Shown here piece by piece: positions 1-59,194 of a DNA stretch of 64,000 nt. This stretch comes from the human T2T-CHM13v2.0 reference genome, Homo sapiens. Both the position numbers and the translations under genes were made by a program. Within the stretch, counting starts at the first letter, position 1. Every line of letters starts with the position of its first letter. The stretch is from the NCBI GenBank assembly GCA_009914755.4, contig CP068257.2:43232001-43296000 (forward strand), read 5' to 3'. The notes below the pieces were generated by a model. The model did no database searches. It saw only the letters and a list, made by a program, of their open reading frames with translations, and was not told where the DNA came from.

Positions 1-2255
1 ACAGGGGCAGAACTCCACATCAGGAGTCCCCACTGTAAGGAGCAGCTGAGTGGGACCCACCACCTCGGGGACCTGCACTGGCCACCACTGCGCCAGCCCT
101 CACACAGCAGTCTGAGCTCCTTTTTGGGGTCGTCTTTCCTCCAGATGAAGCTCTTGGATTGAGTCTGACCCCATACACAAATAAAGTGGGGTCCAAAAGC
201 CCTATCCAGGTTTAACTTCAAGAATCTTGCTCTAAAGATCTTCAATACACCATGGGTTCTTAATGTCTCTCCTCCATCAAAACACATAAAAAGATGCTTA
301 AAAGTGTTGGATTTGGATTGGTATAATGTATTCTCTAAATTCACACAGTGTCCTTGTAAAGGAGACAAAACGTTTTAAACATCAGTACTGCGGTCACATT
401 CCTGTAACCATGACAAGCAGTAAAAATCTCACACCAAGCAAGTACTCTGTGGGAAGAGGGGAGTTCTCCAGGCTATAAATAGCCCCTCTCTCCAAGGACA
501 AGGGGCACGCAGACACCAAAGGCGCCTGGGCAGTGAATGCCAACATGACACGGCACCATTCTTCCTATTCCAAGGGGTCCCCAGTGAGAGAAACAACAGT
601 CCACCCACCAGGACTTGGTGATTACCATAAGTGGAAGCAAGCAAGTGCAGCCTCCAAGTGCAGACACACCGAATGGCTTTTCAGCTGACACACCGAATGG
701 CAGTTCCGGATTAATTCCCACACTGTCCACTCCACTCGTCCACACCCATCTCTGCACCCTTCAGCAGTGCAGAGCAGGAGGAATCACAGTCAAACAAAAC
801 CTCATGGTTGTTTTCCTGACACTCCCGCTTTCACAATGCAAGCAAACACACCCCCGAGCCACTGATACAGTTGCCAGTGAATCACACACTCTGCCTGCAG
901 ACGCCCATTCTGTTTGTGGAAACGTATTCACTGCACATTTGCGCTTAGAACTCAATCTGGGCCAAAAGTTCCCAGTACAGTCCCACTGGCCTCCTTGACT
1001 AACAAACTTCAAGGCAGCTGCATTGCTAACGTCACAAACCCTAAGCACACTTGGAGGCAGGTAAGAAGAAACACAAATAATCCTGCATCGGAATAAACAT
1101 TCCATAAGGTCACAAAAAGAAAAGGTGCTCTACTATGCTAAACAGACACTGACAGAGCCTGGGCTAACAAGAGCTGAGAAAAGTATTAGCCCCTCAAGCT
1201 GGGCCCAGGTCAACCCTAATTGTAAGGGTCAGGAAACTGAAGTTAAGGTGGCACTATTCCCCACCACTAGTGGTCACCTGGAAACTCCACACACGGAAGC
1301 CAGCATGACATTGTGAAACAGGTCCAACCATGACACTCTCCAGCTTAGAACCTGCTGGATTTTCCCGCAGCCCACCAGGCCCTGGAGGCCCAGCCCCACA
1401 GGAAGCCACCCTCTATAAACACTGCCGGTTTCTGGAACTCTGAGTCTCCTGTCATGCACTTTCCTCCCCCAGCCCCCGCGCCCTCACTGCTTCTTTCTTG
1501 GTCAGCCTCCCGGGGACTCAGCTCTTCTTGGATAGGAGCTCTGGCTGTCGGTCACCACTGTGGCCGCAGGGCCTGGCGCAGACGGGATAAACGATGAAGA
1601 ATGCCACCTGCGCGTCTGGACAGCGTAGAACCGCAATCAGCTTGCTTCAAAATCAGATGCTACAGCCTGGCTTTGGGGACGCCTTCCTTTCTAAGGCATA
1701 AGTGCGAGCGTTCGCTGCTGTGCGTGGAACTGCGGCCGGGAGGGAGTGGCGGCGTGAACGCCGGCGGCTGTAGAGACACACCGGCCGCGGCCCCATCACC
1801 CTGCAGGGGCCTGCGGCCGCCATCCCGGCCTGCCCCCGACCAGCTGTGCGACCTCGAACACGTCGTGAGCCGGCTTCCCGGCTCGGGATCGAACCCGAGG
1901 AGTGCTGTTTGGGGTCGCAGTGAGGCTAAGGGAGGCCGCAGGTGCCAAGCGTCCCGCCTGCCGGGCGAGGGCCAACCCGAGGCCACGCGCGAGGAGCGGC
2001 CGCAGCGACTGGACAAAACAAAGACAAAGACAAAGACGGCTCTTCCCCTGCCCGCGCCCCAGCCGCGACGGCAGCTCCCGCGGCCGCCAAACGGGCGTGA
2101 CCCTCGAGGAGCCTCCGTCGGGGCGCTGCCTGCGACCGTGGGCCCAGGCCGCCCGCCGAGCCCAGCGCCCTGGCCGAAACCCCGACCCCGACCCCGACCT
2201 GGACCCACCAGCCGCCCCGCCCCCTTCGCGGCCCCGCCCGCCCCGGCGCCCTCAC

Positions 2256-2370
2256 CAGCTCCGGGAGGCTCCTGCGCGGCGGCCACCGGGATGAGCAGCA
2301 GGAGCAGCGCGGCGCCACCGAGGCGCAACCTCCAGTACGGCGTCGGCCCGCGGGCCACTCCGGGCGCCAT
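2256..2370 (-). CDS. PTTG1IP: PTTG1IP (PBF) exon 1 coding part: MAPGVARGPTPYWRLRLGGAALLLLLIPVAAAQEPPGA plus the first base of codon 39; 5'UTR continues upstream to roughly 2450
   Basis: Minus-strand ORF 1660..2370 begins with the known PTTG1IP N-terminus (signal peptide). The genomic reading departs from the protein exactly at a GT donor (AGCTG|GTGAGG) after codon 38. The remaining exons lie left of the window. Confidence 0.8.
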
Positions 2371-2660
2371 GGTCGGCCGGTCGCTCTATCAGTCAGTGGA
2401 GCGTTACAACTCCGACTCCAGCACAAGCGGTCTCCGCCCGGAACAGCCGCGGCGCCGGAAGTGGACCTGCGAGGTGGGGCCATGCGAGTGCGCAGCCTCA
2501 AAAAGCAGCTCGCCCCGCTCCCTCGCCATCCGCCCCGCCCCTCGCCAACGGGCTCGCCTCCCGGCGCGGCTGAGGTTCAGTGCGCCTGCGCGATAGAGGA
2601 AAGGAGCCTGGTAGCGAGGAGAGCGGCTGAGGCTCAGTGCGCCTGCGCGGCGCGGATGGG

Positions 2661-2768
2661 CGAGGCGTGACCGAGGGGCGAGGCGTGACCGAGGGGCGAG
2701 GCGTGACCGAGGGGCGAGGCGTGACCGAGGGGCGAGGCGTGACCGAGGGGCGAGGCGTGACCGAGGGG
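2661..2768. repeat. Perfect 18-bp tandem repeat (cgaggcgtgaccgagggg) x6 in the PTTG1IP 5' flank, about 290 bp upstream of the ATG
   Basis: Six identical consecutive 18-mers read directly from the sequence; each unit carries a GCGTG core. Confidence 0.9.
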
Positions 2769-4890
2769 CTCGCCGCGGCTCCTGCGCCTGCGCGGCGGGG
2801 AACGGCGACCGGCTGAGGGGACTAGGGGAGCGCGGTGCTTCGGTGGCGGAGGTCACGGTGGCCTCCATCCTAAAGGGCTGCGGGCGTCCCGGACGGCGGT
2901 CCCAAGCGCTGCTCACGCTGCTCTTAAGTGAGCCCTGGACGAGGCGCGGTGGGCCCTCATAGTCCGCGCCGGCGCCCTCGCTCCACACCGCGGCGTCCGG
3001 CCCTGGGCTCCCGCCGATGTCCGCGTGGGACTTTTAGGGGATTTGTTTATTTTTGTACGTTAACCACACTAGAAACGGCCCCAGAATGGGCTGAAACGTG
3101 TGCTGCTGAAGCTGCCACCTAAACTCCCGAGAGAAGCGCCGTTTCTCCTCCATGGCTTCTCGCCGACGCCCTCGCTGCGGCCTTCCGGGCCCCTCGGTTG
3201 ATAAAAGGACTAAATAGTGACGGACATTTTTAAGGCTACTTAAGAAATGGCAAAAATACATTTAGAGGTGTGAACCCGAACACACTGCGCGCTTTAAGCC
3301 CCGCGAGAGCCGGGGCCGCCCGCTTCCGTGCGCCCGTAGCTCCTTTCTCGGGTCCGGGATTCGCCGGTGCCGGGGACAGAAACCTCCTGCCTTCTTAGTT
3401 CATGACGCTTGTAGATGAACTTCCCTGTTTTCTGCACTGCTTAGACCAGAAGACGGGAAACCGTGACTGCCGCACCCTTCCCTGAAGCAGGCACTGCCCG
3501 TCGTCCATCAAACGCGAGGACTGCGCCCACCTCGTAGGAAGGACGCCGCGGTCCTGCTAAAAGCCTCCGCCTCTGCCTGCCCGAGGGCACCCTTCCCCTC
3601 CCCGCTTCCGAGGGCGGACTCCATTCCTCTGGAGCCGGTGTTTCCGGGTGGGCCAGCCTCCAACTGCCTTTGAATAACCCCCCCTTACATTAGATTCTGA
3701 CCCTGTGGTGATTTTAGGTTGGGATTTGGGCGCCTGCAGATGGCTCCGAAGCCAGCCTCTTGTGATCCGAGCCACTTCTCTGGCACTCGGAGCGCTGGCA
3801 CCCGCGGAGCGGCCTTGGTTCACCGGACCGCCTGGGAACCTGGCCGGGGTCTCTGGCAGCCTCCCAGGGCTGAGGTTCAGACTCTGTTCCGCCTACCCAG
3901 GTCCACACCTGATAGGGCTGGAGTTGAGGCTTGGTTTTAAGGCAAGAGTTTCGTTTGTTATTTCTCCAAAGAGTCAGCTGTTTGCAGGTGTGTGGTTAAC
4001 ACTATCCTTCGAGGTTAAGGTTTTGTTCGTCTTGCTAAAGTTTGCAACCTTTTTTGTCCTTCAGATTTGGAGAAGGGGAAAGCAGTTTCTCTTTGAAAAG
4101 AAGCAGCGAATCGTGGCTTAAGCAAAATTTGTAATCCTTAAAACTGGCCAGGCTCTGGAGCTGAGTTCAATTTGACATGTCTAAACTTCCTTCTTGAGTA
4201 ACCAGATTTTCCCTTACAGTCTTTTGTCACTTAAGAGAACTCATAGGCAATCGTCCATCCAAAACAAGTCTTTCTCCTTCAGGGAGGACCCATCTTTGGA
4301 AACTCCAGCTGGTTTCCTGTGCAGTGCTTATGGTGCCACCTCTCGTTATATTTAGAAAAATGGTCTCACGTAACTTGAGAAAAAACATTTCAGTGACCAA
4401 AGCCGGGTACCATTGGAACACCAAGCTAATTTACTTGTTTGCTCAATTGGAAAACGCTGGCTCTAGGATAAAACGGAATCTTTGGGAGAGTTATTTTTTA
4501 TGGTAGTTGGAAGCATCCAAAAGAAGTTCTAATAAAGGTATTTATGAGAGAAAAACAAAAATTATCTAAAATAATTTCTGAATTTAAAAAAGACTACTGA
4601 AATTTCTCCCCCTCCTCCCTCAGCTCCTTCTCTTTATCCTTTGTTGTCTGAATTACCTCGCCCAGACCCACCTTTCTTCCTCCTCCTCCTCCTGTTTTGG
4701 GGCCATTGCTCAAACAGCCAGTGTCTCTCATAGGGGACGACTATGTGCCCTAGTTCATGAGTTATGGTCAAAGGTAGAACTTAAAAGTATAATCAAGGAA
4801 TTTCCTGATGCTCACCAGGACCCCACTGGTTTTTCCAGAGAATTTAAATACCCGAGTGTGTGACCCTGCCTCTACTTTGGGAAAAATAAT

Positions 4891-11743: not shown

Positions 11744-12038
11744 TTTTTTTTTTTTGAGATGGAATCTAGCTTTGTTGCCAGGCTGGAGTGCAGTGGCGCA
11801 ATCTCGGCTCACCACAACTTCCGCCTCCTGGGTTCAAGCCATTCTCCTGCCTCAGCCTCCTGAGTAGCTGGGATTATAGGCACGTGCCGCCACACCAAGC
11901 TAATTTTTGTATTTTTAGTAGAGATGGGGTTTCACCATGTTGGCCAGGGTGGTCTCGATCTCCTGACCTTGTGATCTGCCCACCTCGGCCTGCCTCCCAA
12001 AGTGCTGGGATTACAGGCGTGAGCCACTGCGCCCAGCC
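11744..12038 (-). mobile_element. Alu SINE, antisense
   Basis: Poly-T run then gagatggaatctagctttgttgccaggctggagtgcagtggcgc...gcgtgagccactgcgcccagcc. Confidence 0.9.
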
Positions 12039-12499
12039 AGTGTCGACAATTTGACCTCCATCTCCTAGCTTTGTCTAGTGGTTCTCAAACTACAGCGTGC
12101 ATCAGTATCCCTGGAGGACCTGCAAAGCCCAGATTGCTGAGCCCACCCGGAGTGCTGCCGACTAGCTGGTCCGGGGCCAAGCCAAGAATGCGCCTCTGAC
12201 AGGTTTCTAGGTGAGGCTTGTTCTGCTGCCAAGGCCAGCCTTGGGGAACTGAGGCTCAAGGCCAGCGGGTGTCCACCCTGGCTGCACAGCAGCCTCCCCG
12301 AGGAACACTGAACACCAGTCACGGCAGCCCTTCTCCGACAGGGCAGGGGCTTTTAAAGCCCCAGGTGCAGGCTGAGTGGGGACCCCTGAGCTGGGAAGTG
12401 AGCGGTGTTGGAGCATCTGGCCATTTCTAGCTCCTCCCACCTGCCCAGGTAAAGTCTCCCAGGCATATACAGTAAGAGGTTATCACGCAGTTAGAAGTT

Positions 12500-12905
<406 letters not shown>

Positions 12906-13264
12906 TGGCCACAGTTACAATTTTAAAGTAGGGGACCTAAAGCAGATGCCACCCACATGTGCCCATTTGCAGGTCTGCAGTGGCCCTGGCAGTGTGGCCA
13001 GCTGTGTGACTTGCCCAGACAAACTAAGGGGTTTCCCAGGACAAAGGCCTTCCTGTGCTAGAACTGAGACGTTCACCAACTGCAACCACGGCCAGCAGCC
13101 TGCTTGTGTCCAGAGCTCTCAGGCAGGATCTGTGTGGAGCTTGGTGCTGAATTCTGCTCTGGGACCGTGAGCAGCTTTGGCACAGCCCAGGGCTGTTTCC
13201 ACACTTCCACTAAAGCAGTACTGGCTCCCTCCCCTCTGAGTACCCCAGTGGGAGGCAGAGGGGG

Positions 13265-14345
13265 CTCTGTAGACAGCCAGAGGGGAGGTGTAGACACAGT
13301 TGGAGGAGAGGTATAGACAGCTGGGGGGGAGATGTAGATAGCTGGAGGGAAGGAGTAGATGGCTGAAGGGAAGGCATAGACACAGCTGGAGGGGAAGTGT
13401 AGGCACAGCCAGAGGGGAGGTGTAGATGGCTAGAGGGGAGGTGTAGATGGCTGGAAGGGAGGTGTAGACGGCTGGAGAGGAGGTGTAGACAGCTGGAGGG
13501 GAGGTGTAGACTGCTGGAGGGGAGGTGTAGACTGCTGGAGGGGAGGTGTAGACTGCTGGAGGGGAGGTGTAGATGGCTGGAGAAGAGGTGTAGATGGCTG
13601 GAGGGGAGGTGTAGACTGCTGGAGGGGAGGTGTAGATGGCTGGATAAGAGGTGTAGATGGCTGGAAGGGAGGTGTAGACTGCTGGAGGGGAGGTGTAGAT
13701 GGCTGGAGAGGAGGTGTAGACGGTTGGAGGGGAGGTGTAGACTGCTGGAGGGGAGGTGTAGACTGCTGGAGGGGAGGTGTAGATGGCTGGAGAAGAGGTG
13801 TAGACGGCTGGAGGGGAGGTGTAGACTGCTGGAGGGGAGGTGCAGACGGCTGGAGAAGAGGTGTAGACGGCTGGAGGGGAGGTGTAGACTGCTGGAGGGG
13901 AGGTGCAGACGGCTGGAGAAGAGGTGTAGACGGCTGGAGGGGAGGTGTAGACTGCTGGAGGGGAGGTGTAGATGGCTGGAGAAGAGGTGTAGACGGCTGG
14001 AGGGGAGGTGTAGAATGCTGGAGGGGAGGTGCAGACGGCTGGAGAAGAGGTGTAGACAGCTGGAGGGGAGGTGTAGACTGCTGGAGGGGAGGTGTAGATG
14101 GCTGGAGAAGAGGTGTAGATGGCTGGAGGGGAGGTGTAGACTGCTGGAGGGGAGGTGTAGACGGCTGGAGAAGAGGTGTAGACGGCTGGAGGGGAGGTGT
14201 AGACTGCTGGAGGGGAGGTGTAGATGGCTGGAGGGGAGGTGTAGATGGCTGGAGGGGAGGTGTAGATGGCTGGAGGGGAGGTGTAGAGCTGGAGAGGAGG
14301 TGTAGATGGCTGGAGGGGAGGTGTAGATGGCTGGAGGGAGGGCAG
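13265..14345. repeat. Minisatellite/VNTR, 21-bp unit (gctggaggggaggtgtagact and variants), about 50 copies, about 1.1 kb, 300 bp 3' of the ITGB2 polyA site
   Basis: Direct reading: ggaggggaggtgtaga(c/t)(g/t)gctgg repeated continuously. Both strands give long spurious open frames (PPAVYTS..., STPPLQP..., EGRCRLL...). Confidence 0.9.
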
Positions 14346-14639
14346 ACAGGTACCCGCTTTCCTGCTTTGCCTCTGCCCTGGCCAGGCTCCGCTGCAGGCA
14401 CCTCTTTGGTGGGGCCACCACCGTTTACGGAAATGCACCTAGGATTTGGGACAGGGCCTCAGAGCGGGGCTCTGTATAGACCAGCAGGTGAGGAAGGAAA
14501 AGGGAAAACAGAACCTGCCCCATGGTCTGAAGCCAGCTGTGTGCCTGTGTGGCAAAGGTCAGCGGGCAGGACAGGGCCCACGTGTGCCTGGCCACCTTGC
14601 CAGTCGGGGGAATACAGCGGACACAGTGCCCAGTTTCCA

Positions 14640-15048
14640 TGGACAGCCTGTATTGAAGTTTTATTTTTTTTCTATACAAGTGATTGATTAACAATATAAT
14701 TAATGGGATGTCATTTTATACCCTGACAAGTTTAAATGTAAATAAATTGGCACCACCTTTAATCAGACTGATGTCCTGACTTGCACAGGAAACACGCACC
14801 TAACCTCACCAACCTCAAGCCCTCCCTCCTCAAGTCTCCATGCAAAGACTGTGCCAGTCAGAGTGGAGCTGTCCCCCCGACGAGCCCCCAGAAGCACCCG
14901 GCCGGCCATGGCTGTCATTTTGAGGGCGGAAAATAACTGGATTTCTGGTTAATTGGTGACATCCTCAAGAGCTGTGGCAAGCCATGTCTCGGCCGCGTGA
15001 TGGGGCAGACATGGTGGGTCCTGACGGCCTTGTCTTCACCAAGTGCTC
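14640..15048 (-). other. ITGB2: ITGB2 3'UTR (3' end approximate)
   Basis: Sequence between the TAG stop (15049-15051) and the inferred polyA site. Confidence 0.5.
14660..14665 (-). terminator. ITGB2: ITGB2 polyadenylation signal AATAAA (plus-strand tttatt); cleavage expected about 15-25 nt downstream, near 14640
   Basis: First AATAAA on the minus strand after the ITGB2 stop codon, about 385 nt into the 3'UTR. Confidence 0.5.
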
Positions 15049-15626
<578 letters not shown>

Positions 15627-16189
15627 TCACTGAGCCGTGTGCCCACAGGTCCGAGGTCACCCCACAACACAGCACTTAGAGAGACGGAGGTTCCCAGGGC
15701 CCCGGCTCACCATCCATCACCATGGCCAGGGGTCAGTGAGAACCTGGCCCAGCCCCTGCTGGATTCCAGGCCAGGCCCTGTGGTTCCAAATGAAACCTAA
15801 GGGCCATTGCCACCACCCCTGCTGACAGAGAAGAAGGCAGGGCCAGGGTACCGGGCAGCCAGGACAGAGTGCTAATACTGGGGGGTAGGACACAGTGCGA
15901 GGGACCCCGCTCTCCTACAGCAGAGTTCAGAACCAGGCTCAGGGTCCCTGCTGGAGTTCACTCCCCATACTGTGAAAGTGATTTGTGGTCGTCAAGGACA
16001 AGACCAGAGACCAGAGCTCAGCAGGTGAGGCCGGTGCCAGGATGAGCAACGCAAGGTCCTGGTTCCCACGGCAGCTGTGCCCACCTCCTGAGCATGGGGA
16101 CTGTGGGCCATAGTGGGCCAGGCCCACAGCTGCTGACCCTGGGACAGACACTAGCGTTCAGTGCAGTCCCTGGCCTGGTCTGGCATCCT

Positions 16190-24654: not shown

Positions 24655-24850
24655 CTGCAGCATTGTCCAGGCCTGCCTGTGTGAGTCCTCCTGCCTGCGG
24701 TGTGAGTGATCCCGCCTGCGGTGTGAGTGCTCCCGCCTGCGGTGTGAGTGATCCCGCCTGCAGTGTGAGTGATCCTGCCTGCGGTGTGACTGCTCCCGCC
24801 TGTGGTGTGAGTACTCCTGCCTGTGGTGTGAGTGATCCTGCCTGGTGGAT
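24655..24850. repeat. 21-bp minisatellite (cctgcggtgtgagtgatcccg and variants) x about 9 in ITGB2 intron 8
   Basis: Direct reading of consecutive near-identical 21-mers. Spurious ORFs on both strands (HSHRR.../PACGVSDPACGVS...). Confidence 0.85.
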
Positions 24851-41469: not shown

Positions 41470-41745
41470 CCCCAGGGTGCAGGGTCCAGCCAGCTTCAGG
41501 ACTCCCCCAGGGTGCAGGGTCCAGCCGGCTTCAGGACTCCCCCAGGGTGCAGGGTCCAGCCGGCTTCAGGACTCCCCCAGGGTGCAGGGTCCAGCCGGCT
41601 TCAGGACTCCCCCAGGGTGCAGGGTCCAGCCGGCTTCAGGACTCCCCCAGGGTGCAGGGTCCAGCCGGCTTCAGGACTCCCCCAGGGTGCAGGGTCCAGC
41701 CAGCTTCAGGACTCCCCCAGGTCGCAGCTGCGCCAAGTGGGGAGG
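41470..41745. repeat. 30-bp minisatellite (gggtgcagggtccagccggcttcaggactcccccag) x about 9, ITGB2 intron 1
   Basis: Direct reading. Gives repetitive spurious ORFs on the plus strand (PGCRVQPASGLPQGAGSSRLQDSPRVQGPAGFRTP repeated). Confidence 0.9.
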
Positions 41746-47105: not shown

Positions 47106-47482
47106 TGCTCACCCCATGCCCCTTCCAGACAGGGTGCAGATAGGGCCCCTCCCATCTCCTGGATGGCCGCGGCCCCTGTGCAGAACTTCCTTCATGGGCA
47201 CCTCGCTGTCTGGGGGCCTCTTCCCCAGGGAGTCTCCTGGTGGTGGCCGTGTTGCCTCAGGCTCACTGTGCACTAGGCAGGTCACGTCGATGCCGCCTGA
47301 GGGGCAGGGGTTACCACCCTGTGGTTCAGGTGAGAAGCTCCAGGCTCAGGAGTGTCCAGCTGCCTGGGCAGTGTTTGGATCTCATGCCAGCCCCTGCCAG
47401 GAGGCCCTGCTTCTCCAGCCCAGCCCACGCCCACCAGGAAATGCCCCTATTTACTCCCTTGAGGCAAAGGCCCTTGGGTGGC

Positions 47483-47810
47483 TGAGCATCCCCTCTCCCA
47501 GCACTCGGAGCTGAGCGTCCCCTCTCCCAGCACTCGGAGCTGAGCGTCCCCTCTCCCAGCACTCGGAGCTGAGCGTCCCCTCTCCCAGCACTCGGAGCTG
47601 AGCGTCCCCTCTCCCAGCACTCGGAGCTGAGCATTCCCCTCTCCCAGCACTCGGAGCTGAGCGTCCCCTCTCCCAGCACTCGGAGCTGAGCGTCCCCTCT
47701 CCCAGCACTCGGAGCTGAGCGTCCCCTCTCCCAGCACTCGGAGCTGAGCGTCCCCTCTCCCAGCACTCGGAGCTGAGCATTCCCCTCTCCCAGCACTCAG
47801 AGGTGCCTTC
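47483..47810. repeat. 30-bp minisatellite (gctgagcgtcccctctcccagcactcggag) x about 11, ITGB2 intron 1
   Basis: Direct reading. Spurious repetitive ORFs on the minus strand (ECWERGRSAPSAGRGDAQLRVLGEGTLSS). Confidence 0.9.
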
Positions 47811-57589: not shown

Positions 57590-57795
57590 GTGTGGGCTGC
57601 CTTCCTCACCCTGGATGCCTGTGGGCAGCCTTCCTCACCCTGGATGCCTGTGGGCTGCCTTCCTCACCCTGGATGCCTGTGGGCAGCCTTCCTCACCCTG
57701 GATGCCTGTGGGCTGCCTTCCTCACCCTGGATGCCTGTGGGCAGCCTTCCTCACCCTGGATGCCTGTGGGCAGCCTTCCTCACCCTGGATGCCTG
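57590..57795. repeat. 30-bp tandem repeat (ctgccttcctcaccctggatgcctgtgggcag) x7
   Basis: Direct reading. Spurious ORFs MGCLPHPGCLWAAFLTLDACG... repeat. Confidence 0.9.
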
Positions 57796-59194
57796 TGACT
57801 TGGTTTCCATGGGGGCTTCCTAAGCTCAGGGACCCCAAGCCTCCATCAAATCTAATGACCCGCCTTGTCTCTGAACACACCTGTGTTGTCCCCGAGCCCC
57901 TCACCAACCCCCTCTGCAACCCGGCCCACGCATTTCCCATCCTGAAGGGTCCAGCTCATAGGCCGGCCCATGTGTTCCCTTTACCCCTGCTTTGTCCCTA
58001 CCTGGTGGGGAGCTGTCCCTTCTGGGCCCTAGTGTGGCACTTCACACACAAATGTGTCCTGTGGGTGGTATCTGGGCCTCCCCCTGCAGTGAGGGGATGA
58101 CCAATGTGCAGAGCTCACTGGGCCTGGATATGGGCTCGGGTGGCACAGAACAGAGAGAAAGTGCTCCGTAAAAGTGAGCTGCGATGCGGAGGTGGGCAAG
58201 CTCTTCCCTGGAGGGGGAAGAGCTCTCAACCCAGAGGGATCTGACCAGGAAGGTTCACCCCCCCTCCACCCAGGAAGCCCCTGCAGACAGTATGTGTTTT
58301 AGGCTTTGCTGGCCAAATGGTCTCTGCCGCGACTACTCAGCTCTGCCATTGTGGCTGCAGAGTGACCATAGACCTTCTGAAAGTGAATGAGTATGACTGT
58401 GTTCCAATAAAACTTTATTGACAAAAACAGGTGGAGGGCCAGCCTAAGGGCCCAAGTTTGTAGGTCTCTATTCTAGACCAGTGATTCTCTGGAGAGGAAT
58501 GGGGCATGGGGAGTGGGGACAGTGTGTGGGAGAAGAGGTGGGACACAGGCACGTGGGAATGGTGCGGACATGGAGGACATTGGAGGTGGGGAAGAGCTAG
58601 AGAACCTAAACACTGACGCTGGACCCTGGTCAACACTAGGTCTCTCCACAGCCTCCTCTTTTAGCCTCTCCCTCCAGTTTCAAAATGACTCCTCCTCTGA
58701 GGGGACTCAGGCTCCCCACCCTGCTCCCCAGTTCCCACCAGAAACCCCAAGTGGGTGTTCCAGCCTCTGCCCCACAAGGCCCCCATGGAAGGCAGCACCG
58801 CCAGGCAGGGACCTTTCCTCGCTGCCCCTCCCTCTTCCAGTTCTGAGTCCTGTCCCGGAGATGACCTCTCAACCCAGAGGGACCTGACCAGAAAGGTCTG
58901 GCCCCCTCCACCCAGGAAGCCCCTGAAGGCTGGAGGGCAGCCCTCCCCCCTCCCTCCCCCTGTTAGTTTTTCTTTCTGATAGAAACAGCAGCAACCGCTA
59001 GGCACCTGCTAGGCAGGGGGCTGCACAGCCTCAGGTCAGTTCCTGAAAGGCACCTTTTTCCATTTGTAAATGAGGTGACAGGTCTGCCTCCCAGGGATGA
59101 GCAGATGAAGGGTTGGGAGTGCAGAGCCTGGGAACACGGAGTGGCAGTGGGGACTGGGGCCCAGAGGCTGCTGAGTGAGGGAAGGCTAGGGGCA

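What the first reader, a model, noticed from the sequence alone, without database searches (positions are those of the whole stretch)
13265..14345. Large 21-bp minisatellite (about 50 copies) immediately 3' of the ITGB2 polyA site
A continuous 1.1 kb array of GCTGGAGGGGAGGTGTAGA(C/T)(T/G) units sits about 300 bp downstream of the ITGB2 cleavage site and about 11 kb upstream of the PTTG1IP TSS. It is G-rich on the plus strand and C-rich on the ITGB2 sense strand, with a GGGG run every 21 bp. Arrays like this are usually length-polymorphic (VNTR) and can form non-B DNA or R-loops. Its position just past the polyA signal could plausibly affect Pol II termination or act as a boundary between the two genes. 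The 400+ aa ORFs the repeat produces on both strands (PPAVYTS.., LHLPSSS.., STPPLQP.., EGRCRLL..) are repeat artefacts.
Basis: seen in the sequence. Interest (0 to 1): 0.5.

Follow-up and report, generated by a model that had tools for sequence, protein, structure and literature searches.

The report
Ordinary minisatellite downstream of ITGB2
This is a real 1.07 kb array of about 51 copies of a 21-base unit just past the end of the human ITGB2 gene, but it looks like one of the many ordinary GC-rich minisatellites found near chromosome ends, and its strand orientation and sequence argue against the proposed role in ending transcription.

Summary
Tandem Repeats Finder reports one array at 13268..14338 (period 21, 50.8 copies, 86% matches). 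It lies about 300 bp past the ITGB2 AATAAA (minus strand, 14660-14665) and about 10.9 kb from the PTTG1IP start codon (2370). GGGG is therefore not present every 21 bp: there are 33 runs in about 51 units.

The window is packed with minisatellites: 25 arrays covering 8% of bases. 27% of positions lie within 300 bp of one, so the position next to the polyA site is not remarkable.

The functional ideas fare poorly on sequence tests:
- No canonical G-quadruplex motif on either strand, and only marginal two-tetrad structures.
- No R-loop initiation motif.
- No match to the CTCF, PRDM9 or Jeffreys-core consensus strings I used.
- The G-rich strand is the ITGB2 template strand (GC skew -0.72 in the sense direction), the wrong orientation for R-loop-linked termination or G-rich blockage.

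Length polymorphism is predicted but could not be tested here. No paper on this array was found. Verdict: an ordinary, probably variable, subtelomeric minisatellite of low interest.

The parts
13268..14338 (.). Whole 21-bp minisatellite array (50.8 copies; G-rich on +, C-rich on the ITGB2 sense strand)
   Evidence: TRF score 1472. 49 motif hits against 0.1 expected. G 51.6%, C 8.3%, GC 0.599, GC skew +0.72.
13254..13428 (.). Degenerate left (PTTG1IP-side) edge: about 8 diverged units of 21-23 bp
   Evidence: Units need 5-6 substitutions or indels to match the consensus. TRF reports a local 23-bp period at 13368..13418. Junctions read ACAG/ATGG/ATAG, the expected decay products of ACGG.
13429..14289 (.). 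In-register core: 41 units of exactly 21 bp, in 16 variant types
   Evidence: Unit table and column profile. 54 of 60 variant cells are shared by at least 2 units.
13765..14205 (.). 63-bp higher-order repeat block: 7 copies of a three-unit trimer (GGGG..A[T/C]G, GAGAAGAGG..ACG, GGGG..ACT)
   Evidence: Lag-63 identity is 0.96-0.97 against 0.87 at lag 21. Mean pairwise identity of HOR copies is 0.966, while the sub-units differ by 9-16%.
14206..14338 (.). Right (ITGB2-side) end: three identical units, one unit with a 2-bp deletion (14269..14287), then two more full units and the start of a final diverged unit that extends to about 14350
   Evidence: The 2-bp deletion shifts the register and ends the + strand ORF.
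14660..14665 (-). ITGB2 polyadenylation signal AATAAA (context, not part of the array)
   Evidence: It is the only minus-strand AATAAA between 12000 and 14700, and lies about 390 bp after the ITGB2 stop codon.
15049..15087 (-). Last ITGB2 codons ([12 protein letters not shown]) and stop codon (context)
   Evidence: Six-frame peptide match.
2368..2370 (-). PTTG1IP start codon (context; the TSS lies somewhat upstream, within the CpG island at about 2000-3000)
   Evidence: The ORF begins MAPGVARGPTPYWRLRLGGAALLLLLIP. GC is 0.74-0.75 over 2001..3000.

Best explanation
The feature is an ordinary GC-rich, strand-asymmetric human minisatellite in the ITGB2-PTTG1IP intergenic spacer. The two genes place it on distal 21q22.3, within a few Mb of the telomere; that location comes from established knowledge and was not tested here.

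It most likely arose by duplication of a 21-23-bp seed. It then grew by repeated unequal exchange, gene conversion or replication slippage. The most recent rounds amplified a three-unit (63-bp) block, which produced the homogeneous ITGB2-side two-thirds and left old, decayed units at the PTTG1IP-side edge.

The C/T and G/A variation at the unit junction is what decay of one methylated CpG per unit (ACGG to ATGG or ACAG) would give.

It needs no function to exist. It is probably length-polymorphic. Its position in the ITGB2 termination zone is incidental, and any effect on Pol II is expected to be small.

Shown: the anatomy, the HOR, the context, the strand bias and the absence of the tested structure or protein motifs. 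Inferred: the mode of growth, germline methylation, polymorphism and neutrality.
For: -
- HOR: seven 63-bp copies are 96.6% identical while their sub-units differ by 9-16%, and lag-63 identity exceeds lag-21 identity.
- There is a divergence gradient, with degenerate 21-23-bp units at the left edge.
- 90% of variant cells are shared between units, the signature of repeated block duplication.
- Junction dinucleotides are CG 11, TG 13, CA 2, CT 13, and CpG observed/expected is 0.24.
- The window holds 25 minisatellite arrays covering 8% of its bases, and 27% of positions lie within 300 bp of one.
- GC 0.599 and unit 21 bp put it at the edge of the class (GC >60%, unit >15 bp) reported as 21-fold enriched within 5 Mb of chromosome ends (PMC7608644).
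- Negative functional tests: no canonical G4, R-loop initiation zone, CTCF, PRDM9 or Jeffreys-core motif. G4 energy is marginal, hairpins are weak and there is no Rfam family.
- GC skew is anti-oriented to ITGB2 transcription (against PMC3787257 and the PMC3561996 abstract).
- No paper or held supplement links a VNTR here to ITGB2 or PTTG1IP.
Against: - Neutrality is an argument from absence. No chromatin, transcription, population or cross-species data could be consulted.
- At 1.07 kb the array is twice the size of the next largest in the window.
- It carries 31 copies of GGGGAGG, one mismatch from the GGGGAGGGG string I recalled as a MAZ-type site, which zinc-finger proteins could bind.
- 36% of 25-nt windows reach G4Hunter 1.2. 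Two-tetrad, bulged or long-loop G4s are not excluded.
- The motif consensus strings used for CTCF, MAZ and PRDM9 were recalled from memory, not taken from a curated matrix.
Confidence: 0.8

Rival explanations
1. The array is a Pol II pause or termination aid for ITGB2. Read-through polymerase meets 1 kb of G-rich template (or G4 or R-loop structures), slows down, and is released before reaching PTTG1IP.
For: - It lies about 300-1370 bp past the polyA signal, inside the usual termination zone.
- ITGB2 and PTTG1IP are in tandem orientation, the arrangement in which terminal GC skew is enriched among closely spaced genes (PMC3787257).
- There is extreme strand asymmetry and 28 two-tetrad G4 motifs on the + strand.
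Against: - The skew is anti-oriented. The RNA made by ITGB2 read-through would be C-rich, whereas R-loop-conducive terminal skew is defined as positive skew co-oriented with transcription.
- R-loop initiation and elongation zones are defined on the non-template strand (PMC6125637).
- G-rich blockage in vitro is strictly limited to the G-rich strand being non-template (PMC3561996 abstract).
- There is no RIZ motif, no canonical G4 and no exact GGGGAGGGG. G4 energy is about -1.4 kcal/mol per unit, against -27.7 for a control.
- The next gene is about 10.9 kb away, not within the 2 kb at which that enrichment was measured.
- 27% of positions in this window lie within 300 bp of a minisatellite.
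Confidence: 0.06
2. The array is a length-dependent cis-regulatory element, either a multi-site platform for G-rich-motif zinc-finger proteins or a methylation-sensitive element. It would tune ITGB2 or PTTG1IP expression or insulate the two genes from each other.
For: - There are 31 tandem GGGGAGG sites and about 50 iterations of one 21-bp sequence.
- VNTRs near genes are often expression-associated in general (abstracts listed).
- An 18-bp VNTR in the neighbouring PTTG1IP promoter has been reported as functional (Xiang 2012, as cited).
Against: - There is no CTCF consensus match even with 2 mismatches.
- CpG is depleted (observed/expected 0.24), which suggests a methylated, inactive state in the germline rather than a protected regulatory island.
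- Neither ITGB2 nor PTTG1IP appears in the held supplements of three VNTR-expression studies, though held files may be incomplete.
- No paper mentions the motif.
Confidence: 0.1
3. The array encodes a repetitive protein or peptide. The candidate is the 439-aa minus-strand PPAVYTS frame, which is on the same strand as ITGB2.
For: - There are long open frames of 439, 403 and 323 aa on the minus strand.
- One database protein has similar PPAVYTT repeats.
Against: - Five of six frames are open at once, as expected for a 21-nt unit without stops.
- The long frames start at GTG, which is unusual for a human gene.
- The variable unit positions change the amino acid in every frame.
- The single hit has an 8-aa (24-nt) period and a C-type lectin domain, so it is unrelated.
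- No identical product is on record.
Confidence: 0.01

Closest known systems
GC-rich subtelomeric minisatellites / VNTRs (the class described by Linthorst et al. 2020, PMC7608644; classical human minisatellites)
   Same: The unit is longer than 15 bp, GC is about 60%, there are tens of head-to-tail copies and the purine/pyrimidine strand asymmetry is strong. Internal variant units are shared between copies. It sits in a minisatellite-dense region, which from gene identity is distal 21q22.3.
   Different: Copy-number variability, the property that makes a minisatellite a VNTR, was not observable here. GC (0.599) sits just at the class threshold rather than above it.
Hypervariable 'core' minisatellites of Jeffreys (core GGGCAGGANG, chi-like)
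   Same: The strand is G-rich. The unit starts GCTGGAGG, one mismatch from chi GCTGGTGG (31 one-mismatch hits).
   Different: The core GGGCAGGANG has no match with 0 or 1 mismatch, and there is no exact chi. The resemblance is compositional only.
Terminal GC-skew / R-loop termination regions (Ginno et al. 2013, PMC3787257) and G-rich pause elements downstream of polyA sites
   Same: It lies within the -500/+1500 bp window around a gene's 3' end. GC skew is very strong. The next gene lies in tandem orientation.
   Different: The skew is on the wrong strand, -0.72 in the direction of ITGB2 transcription. There is no G-cluster initiation motif, and the neighbour is about 10.9 kb away.
PTTG1IP promoter 18-bp VNTR (Xiang et al. 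2012, cited)
   Same: It is a tandem array in the same intergenic neighbourhood. It is present in this window at 2658..2769.
   Different: That array is short (6 perfect copies), CpG-rich, lies inside the promoter CpG island and has reported functional data. The 21-bp array is 10.5 kb away, CpG-poor, unrelated in sequence and has no published study that I could find.

Membership tests
Minisatellite | Head-to-tail tandem array of units of roughly 10-100 bp, with many copies | tested here: met
   Period 21, 50.8 copies, 86% matches. 49 same-strand motif hits in register.
Minisatellite | GC-rich with strand asymmetry, clustered with other arrays towards chromosome ends | tested here: met
   GC 0.599, skew +0.72, purine 0.75. 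25 arrays in 64 kb. The subtelomeric position follows from gene identity (ITGB2/PTTG1IP) plus established map knowledge, and was not measured here.
VNTR (variable-number tandem repeat) | Copy number differs between individuals | not testable with these tools
   No second human allele was retrievable. The repeat dimer is absent from the metagenome, genome and viral collections. The one human-derived contig stops at the array edge. Indirect evidence only: the array meets the entry criteria (unit >=17, copies >=10, length >=350, matches >=70%) and the GC >=0.48 criterion of the Denoeud 2003 predictor as described in PMC1781109. A proxy for mutation redundancy is 0.90. True HistoryR was not computed.
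Jeffreys-core hypervariable minisatellite | Units contain the core GGGCAGGANG | tested here: not met
   0 matches with 0 or 1 mismatch in the array.
Canonical G-quadruplex-forming sequence | Four G3+ tracts with loops of 1-7 (or 1-12) nt | tested here: not met
   0 matches on either strand. There are only 3 with loops up to 21 nt and 28 two-tetrad motifs. ViennaRNA with G4 enabled predicts only two-tetrad G4s, worth about -1.4 kcal/mol each.
Canonical G-quadruplex-forming sequence | G4Hunter score above the usual 1.2-1.5 threshold | tested here: inconclusive
   Mean 1.07. 36% of 25-nt windows are >=1.2 and 3% are >=1.5.
R-loop-linked terminator (terminal GC skew class) | GC-skew peak within -500/+1500 bp of the gene's 3' end | tested here: met
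   The array spans about +300 to +1370 bp from the ITGB2 polyA site. The definition is in PMC3787257.
R-loop-linked terminator (terminal GC skew class) | Positive GC skew co-oriented with transcription (G-rich non-template strand) | tested here: not met
   Skew is +0.72 on the + strand, which is -0.72 in the ITGB2 (minus-strand) direction.
R-loop-forming sequence (QmRLFS) | Initiation zone: G3+N1-10G3+N1-10G3+ or G4+N1-10G4+ | tested here: not met
   0 matches on either strand. G>=4 runs are 21 or 42 bp apart. Only the elongation-zone criterion (high G density) is met, and only on the + strand.
CTCF insulator / boundary element | CTCF core motif | tested here: not met
   0 matches to CCASYAGRKGGCRSY with up to 2 mismatches in the array. 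The consensus string is from memory, and no curated matrix or ChIP data were available.
MAZ-type G-rich pause element | G-run/A/G-run site (GGGGAGGGG or longer) downstream of a polyA site | tested here: not met
   0 exact GGGGAGGGG and 31 one-mismatch sites (GGGGAGG..). These lie on the antisense strand of ITGB2. The consensus is recalled from memory. The literature search on orientation dependence of MAZ4 found nothing usable.
PRDM9 hotspot motif carrier | CCNCCNTNNCCNC | tested here: not met
   0 exact matches in the array against 19 in the window.
Protein-coding tandem repeat | One frame preferred, plus homologues or an annotated product | tested here: not met
   Five of six frames are open. 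There is no identical product on record. The single hit is an unrelated 8-aa-repeat lectin.
Structured RNA family | Match to an Rfam covariance model | tested here: not met
   No hit inside the array at E<=1. The only hits are Alu-derived SRP/miRNA-like matches at 12000..12909.

The most novel reading that the evidence does not exclude
Array length (or the ratio of GGGG to GAGAAGAGG units) could be a cis-acting variant for ITGB2 3'-end formation or for ITGB2/PTTG1IP expression. It would act through a template-strand obstacle (two-tetrad or long-loop G4s on the strand Pol II reads) or through tandem binding of a G-rich-motif zinc-finger protein. That mechanism would differ from the usual non-template-strand R-loop model of termination.
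Probability: 0.06. Interest if true: 0.45.

Novelty: already known. Interest (0 to 1): 0.1.

Why it matters
It matters little as it stands. ITGB2 (CD18) is a clinically important leukocyte integrin, so a variable 1-kb repeat 300 bp past its polyA site is a legitimate candidate when fine-mapping expression or blood-cell associations at this locus. It is also a region where short-read assemblies break: the one public contig recovered ends exactly at the array edge.

The useful result is negative. The attractive G-rich repeat, R-loop, termination story does not fit, because the G-rich strand is the template strand for ITGB2 and the standard G4, R-loop and CTCF motifs are absent. In this repeat-dense region an array next to a polyA site is expected by chance.

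Tried and rejected
1. Other alleles or orthologues.
- Exact scans for a degenerate two-unit pattern found nothing in metagenome, prokaryotic-genome or viral contigs.
- A flank 30-mer found one human-contaminant metagenome contig (L001, 99.74% identical). It ends at 14330, the array edge, so it gives no length information. The same flank was absent from genome contigs.

2. Protein-level search with the 439-aa repeat ORF.
- No identical product is on record.
- The one hit in 5.8 billion proteins is an unrelated C-type lectin with an 8-aa PPAVYTT[EQ] repeat. I rejected it as coincidence because the period differs.

3. Literature.
- ITGB2+VNTR, PTTG1IP/ITGB2+tandem repeat/minisatellite and ITGB2+tandem repeat+long-read returned nothing on this array.
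- Searching six 16-mers of the unit found one paper, a chance match to a cloning primer.
- The supplements of five VNTR studies either were not held or held no ITGB2 or PTTG1IP entry.
- Denoeud 2003 (which typed chr21/22 minisatellites) and Xiang 2012 are not held.
- The MAZ4 orientation search found nothing usable.

4. Structure.
- Hairpin or cruciform potential is weak on both strands: -8.8 and -4.6 kcal/mol per 126 nt, z about -1.6.
- Rfam found nothing in the array.

5. Motifs. PRDM9, the Jeffreys core, chi, CTCF and MAZ have no exact matches.

Full report
**Observation**

Tandem Repeats Finder reports one array at 13268..14338 with period 21, 50.8 copies, 86% matches, 1% indels and score 1472.
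- The 19-mer GCTGGAGGGGAGGTGTAGA has 49 matches with up to 3 mismatches, against 0.10 expected from dinucleotide-preserving shuffles. All are on the + strand inside the array, and none lie elsewhere in the 64 kb.
- In the 41 units that are exactly in register (13429..14289) the consensus is GCTGGAGGGGAGGTGTAGACG.
- Variation is confined to positions 7-9 (G/A), 16 (T/C), 20 (C26/T13) and 21 (G24/T14).

**Context**

- The ITGB2 cytoplasmic tail ([24 protein letters not shown]...[17 protein letters not shown]) is encoded on the minus strand, ending at 15052.
- The only minus-strand AATAAA between 12000 and 14700 is at 14660-14665. The array therefore begins about 300 bp past the cleavage site.
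- The PTTG1IP N-terminus (MAPGVARGPTPYWRLRLGG...) starts at 2370 on the minus strand, inside a CpG island with GC about 0.74-0.75. The array is about 10.9 kb upstream of that gene's start codon.
- Both genes run on the minus strand, so they are in tandem. The array is G-rich on + (G 51.6%, C 8.3%, skew +0.72) and C-rich in the ITGB2 sense direction.

- The array has a 63-bp higher-order period. Identity at lag 63, 126 and 189 is 0.96-0.97 in 13786..14205, against 0.87 at lag 21.
- Written out, seven consecutive trimers from 13765 to 14205 have the form [GGGG...A(T/C)G][GAGAAGAGG...ACG][GGGG...ACT]. Mean pairwise identity is 96.6%, while the three sub-units differ from each other by 9-16%.
- Consequently GGGG is not present every 21 bp. 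There are 33 runs of G>=4 in about 51 units, spaced 21 bp in 17 of 32 intervals and 42 bp in 9.
- The PTTG1IP-side edge (13254..13428) consists of about eight decayed units of 21-23 bp.
- The ITGB2-side end has three identical units. They are followed by one unit with a 2-bp deletion, two further full units and a final diverged unit.
- 54 of 60 variant cells are shared by two or more units. This is the signature of repeated block duplication.
- The unit junction reads CG in 11 units, TG in 13, CA in 2 and CT in 13. CpG observed/expected is 0.24. The old left-edge units read ACAG, ATGG or ATAG.
- I infer that the C/T variation is decay of one methylated CpG per unit, and that the CT variant spread by HOR amplification.

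**Is the position special?**

- The window contains 25 arrays with period >=7 and score >=80, covering 8% of its bases. 27% of all positions lie inside or within 300 bp of one. An array next to a given landmark is unremarkable here.
- This one is, however, the largest: 1071 bp against 512 bp for the next.
- Linthorst et al. report that VNTRs with GC above 60% and units above 15 bp are 21-fold enriched within 5 Mb of chromosome ends (PMC7608644). The array (GC 0.599, unit 21) sits at the edge of that class.
- ITGB2 and PTTG1IP lie on distal 21q22.3. That is established map knowledge and was not tested here.

**Non-B DNA**

- There is no canonical G4 motif (G3+ tracts, loops 1-7 or 1-12) on either strand. 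There are three motifs with loops up to 21 nt and 28 two-tetrad motifs on the + strand.
- G4Hunter averages 1.07. 36% of 25-nt windows reach 1.2 and 3% reach 1.5.
- ViennaRNA with G-quadruplexes enabled and DNA parameters predicts only two-tetrad G4s (GG-CT-GG-A-GG-GGA-GG). Each is worth about -1.4 kcal/mol, against -27.7 kcal/mol for a c-MYC control.
- Hairpin potential is weak on both strands: -8.8 and -4.6 kcal/mol per 126 nt, z about -1.7 and -1.5.
- The array is therefore at best a marginal G4 former. Two-tetrad, bulged and long-loop structures are not excluded.

**R-loops and termination**

- QmRLFS initiation-zone motifs are absent. Only the high-G elongation criterion is met, and only for + strand transcription.
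- Published definitions place the G-rich initiation and elongation zones on the non-template strand (PMC6125637).
- They also define R-loop-conducive terminal skew as positive GC skew co-oriented with transcription (PMC3787257). Here the skew is -0.72 in the ITGB2 direction.
- G-rich homopurine blockage in vitro is reported as strictly orientation-dependent, occurring only when the G-rich strand is non-template (PMC3561996 abstract). For ITGB2 the G-rich strand is the template.
- In Ginno et al. the enrichment of terminal skew concerns neighbours within 2 kb. PTTG1IP is about 10.9 kb away.
- The termination and R-loop reading is thus disfavoured on orientation, motif content and spacing, though not excluded by direct data.

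**Boundary or hotspot motifs**

- Consensus scans found none of the following in the array: CTCF (up to 2 mismatches), the PRDM9 13-mer, the Jeffreys core (up to 1 mismatch), exact chi or exact GGGGAGGGG.
- There are 31 copies of GGGGAGG.
- These consensus strings came from memory, so the result is a lead-level negative.

**Coding and RNA**

- Five of six frames are stop-free across the array: 300 and 417 codons on +; 342, 404 and 439 on -. This is what a stop-poor 21-nt unit gives.
- The 439-aa product is not on record.
- Its only hit among 5.8 billion proteins is a 680-aa C-type lectin with 8-aa PPAVYTT[EQ] repeats. The period differs, so I treat it as coincidence.
- Rfam finds nothing in the array. 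Only Alu-derived hits occur, at 12000..12909.

**Polymorphism**

- This could not be tested. Scans for the repeat found nothing in three public collections.
- The one human-derived contig (L001, 99.74% identical to 14330..15892) ends exactly at the array edge. That shows only that short-read assemblies break there.
- The array meets the entry criteria of the validated chr21/22 predictor: unit >=17, at least 10 copies, at least 350 bp, at least 70% matches. It also meets the GC >=0.48 criterion (PMC1781109 describing Denoeud 2003).
- My proxy for mutation redundancy is 0.90, but true HistoryR was not computed. I therefore regard variability as likely but unproven.

**Literature**

- No paper in the held library discusses this array.
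- No ITGB2 or PTTG1IP entry appears in the held supplements of four VNTR studies.
- The neighbouring 18-bp PTTG1IP promoter VNTR is published (Xiang 2012, cited). It is present in the window at 2658..2769.

**Verdict**

- This is a real, correctly described, ordinary subtelomeric-type minisatellite with a 63-bp higher-order structure. It was most likely generated and maintained by unequal exchange or slippage, and is probably length-variable.
- The proposed role in termination, R-loop formation or boundary function is not supported by any sequence-level test available here, and the strand orientation contradicts it.
- As a TRF-detectable array in the human reference it is already catalogued by construction, although no one appears to have studied it specifically.
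- Interest is low.

Noticed in passing
window 2658..2769: A perfect 18-bp x 6.2 array (GGGCGAGGCGTGACCGAG, 100% matches) lies about 300-400 bp upstream of the PTTG1IP start codon, inside the CpG island. It corresponds to the published 18-bp PTTG1IP promoter VNTR, reported to be associated with ER-positive breast cancer risk (Xiang et al. 2012, cited).
   Followed up: partly
window 41470..41721, 47481..47802, 57591..57797: Three near-perfect minisatellites lie in the ITGB2 gene region: 35 bp x 7.2 at 99%, 29 bp x 11 at 97%, and 29 bp x 7.1 at 97%. Such high identity suggests very recent expansion and likely polymorphism. From my memory of the gene's length, the last one may lie close to the ITGB2 5' end.
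   Followed up: no
window 24671..24844: A second array has nested 21/42/63-bp periodicity (GCCTGCGGTGTGAGTGATCCC, 8.2 copies) in an ITGB2 intron. It is unrelated in sequence to the 21-bp array under study.
   Followed up: no
L001 1..1563 (window 14330..15892, minus): A contig in a public metagenome assembly (ERZ1645191, NODE-4759) is human DNA, 99.74% identical to the ITGB2 3' end with 4 mismatches. It terminates exactly at the minisatellite edge. This shows host contamination, and that short-read assemblies break at this array.
   Followed up: yes
P0001 (JGI hypothetical protein, 680 aa): This C-type lectin domain protein has about 40 tandem 8-aa repeats, PPAVYTT[EQ]. They resemble the spurious 7-aa PPAVYTS frame of the array (59% identity over 67% of the query). 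I judge it a coincidence of repeat composition, because the period differs.
   Followed up: yes
window 12559..12909: Alu elements (SRP-RNA-like Rfam hits, and sub-threshold mir-3135 and mir-1268 hits that are typical of Alu sequence) preceded by a T35 run at 12526..12560. They lie about 350 bp from the degenerate edge of the array.
   Followed up: no
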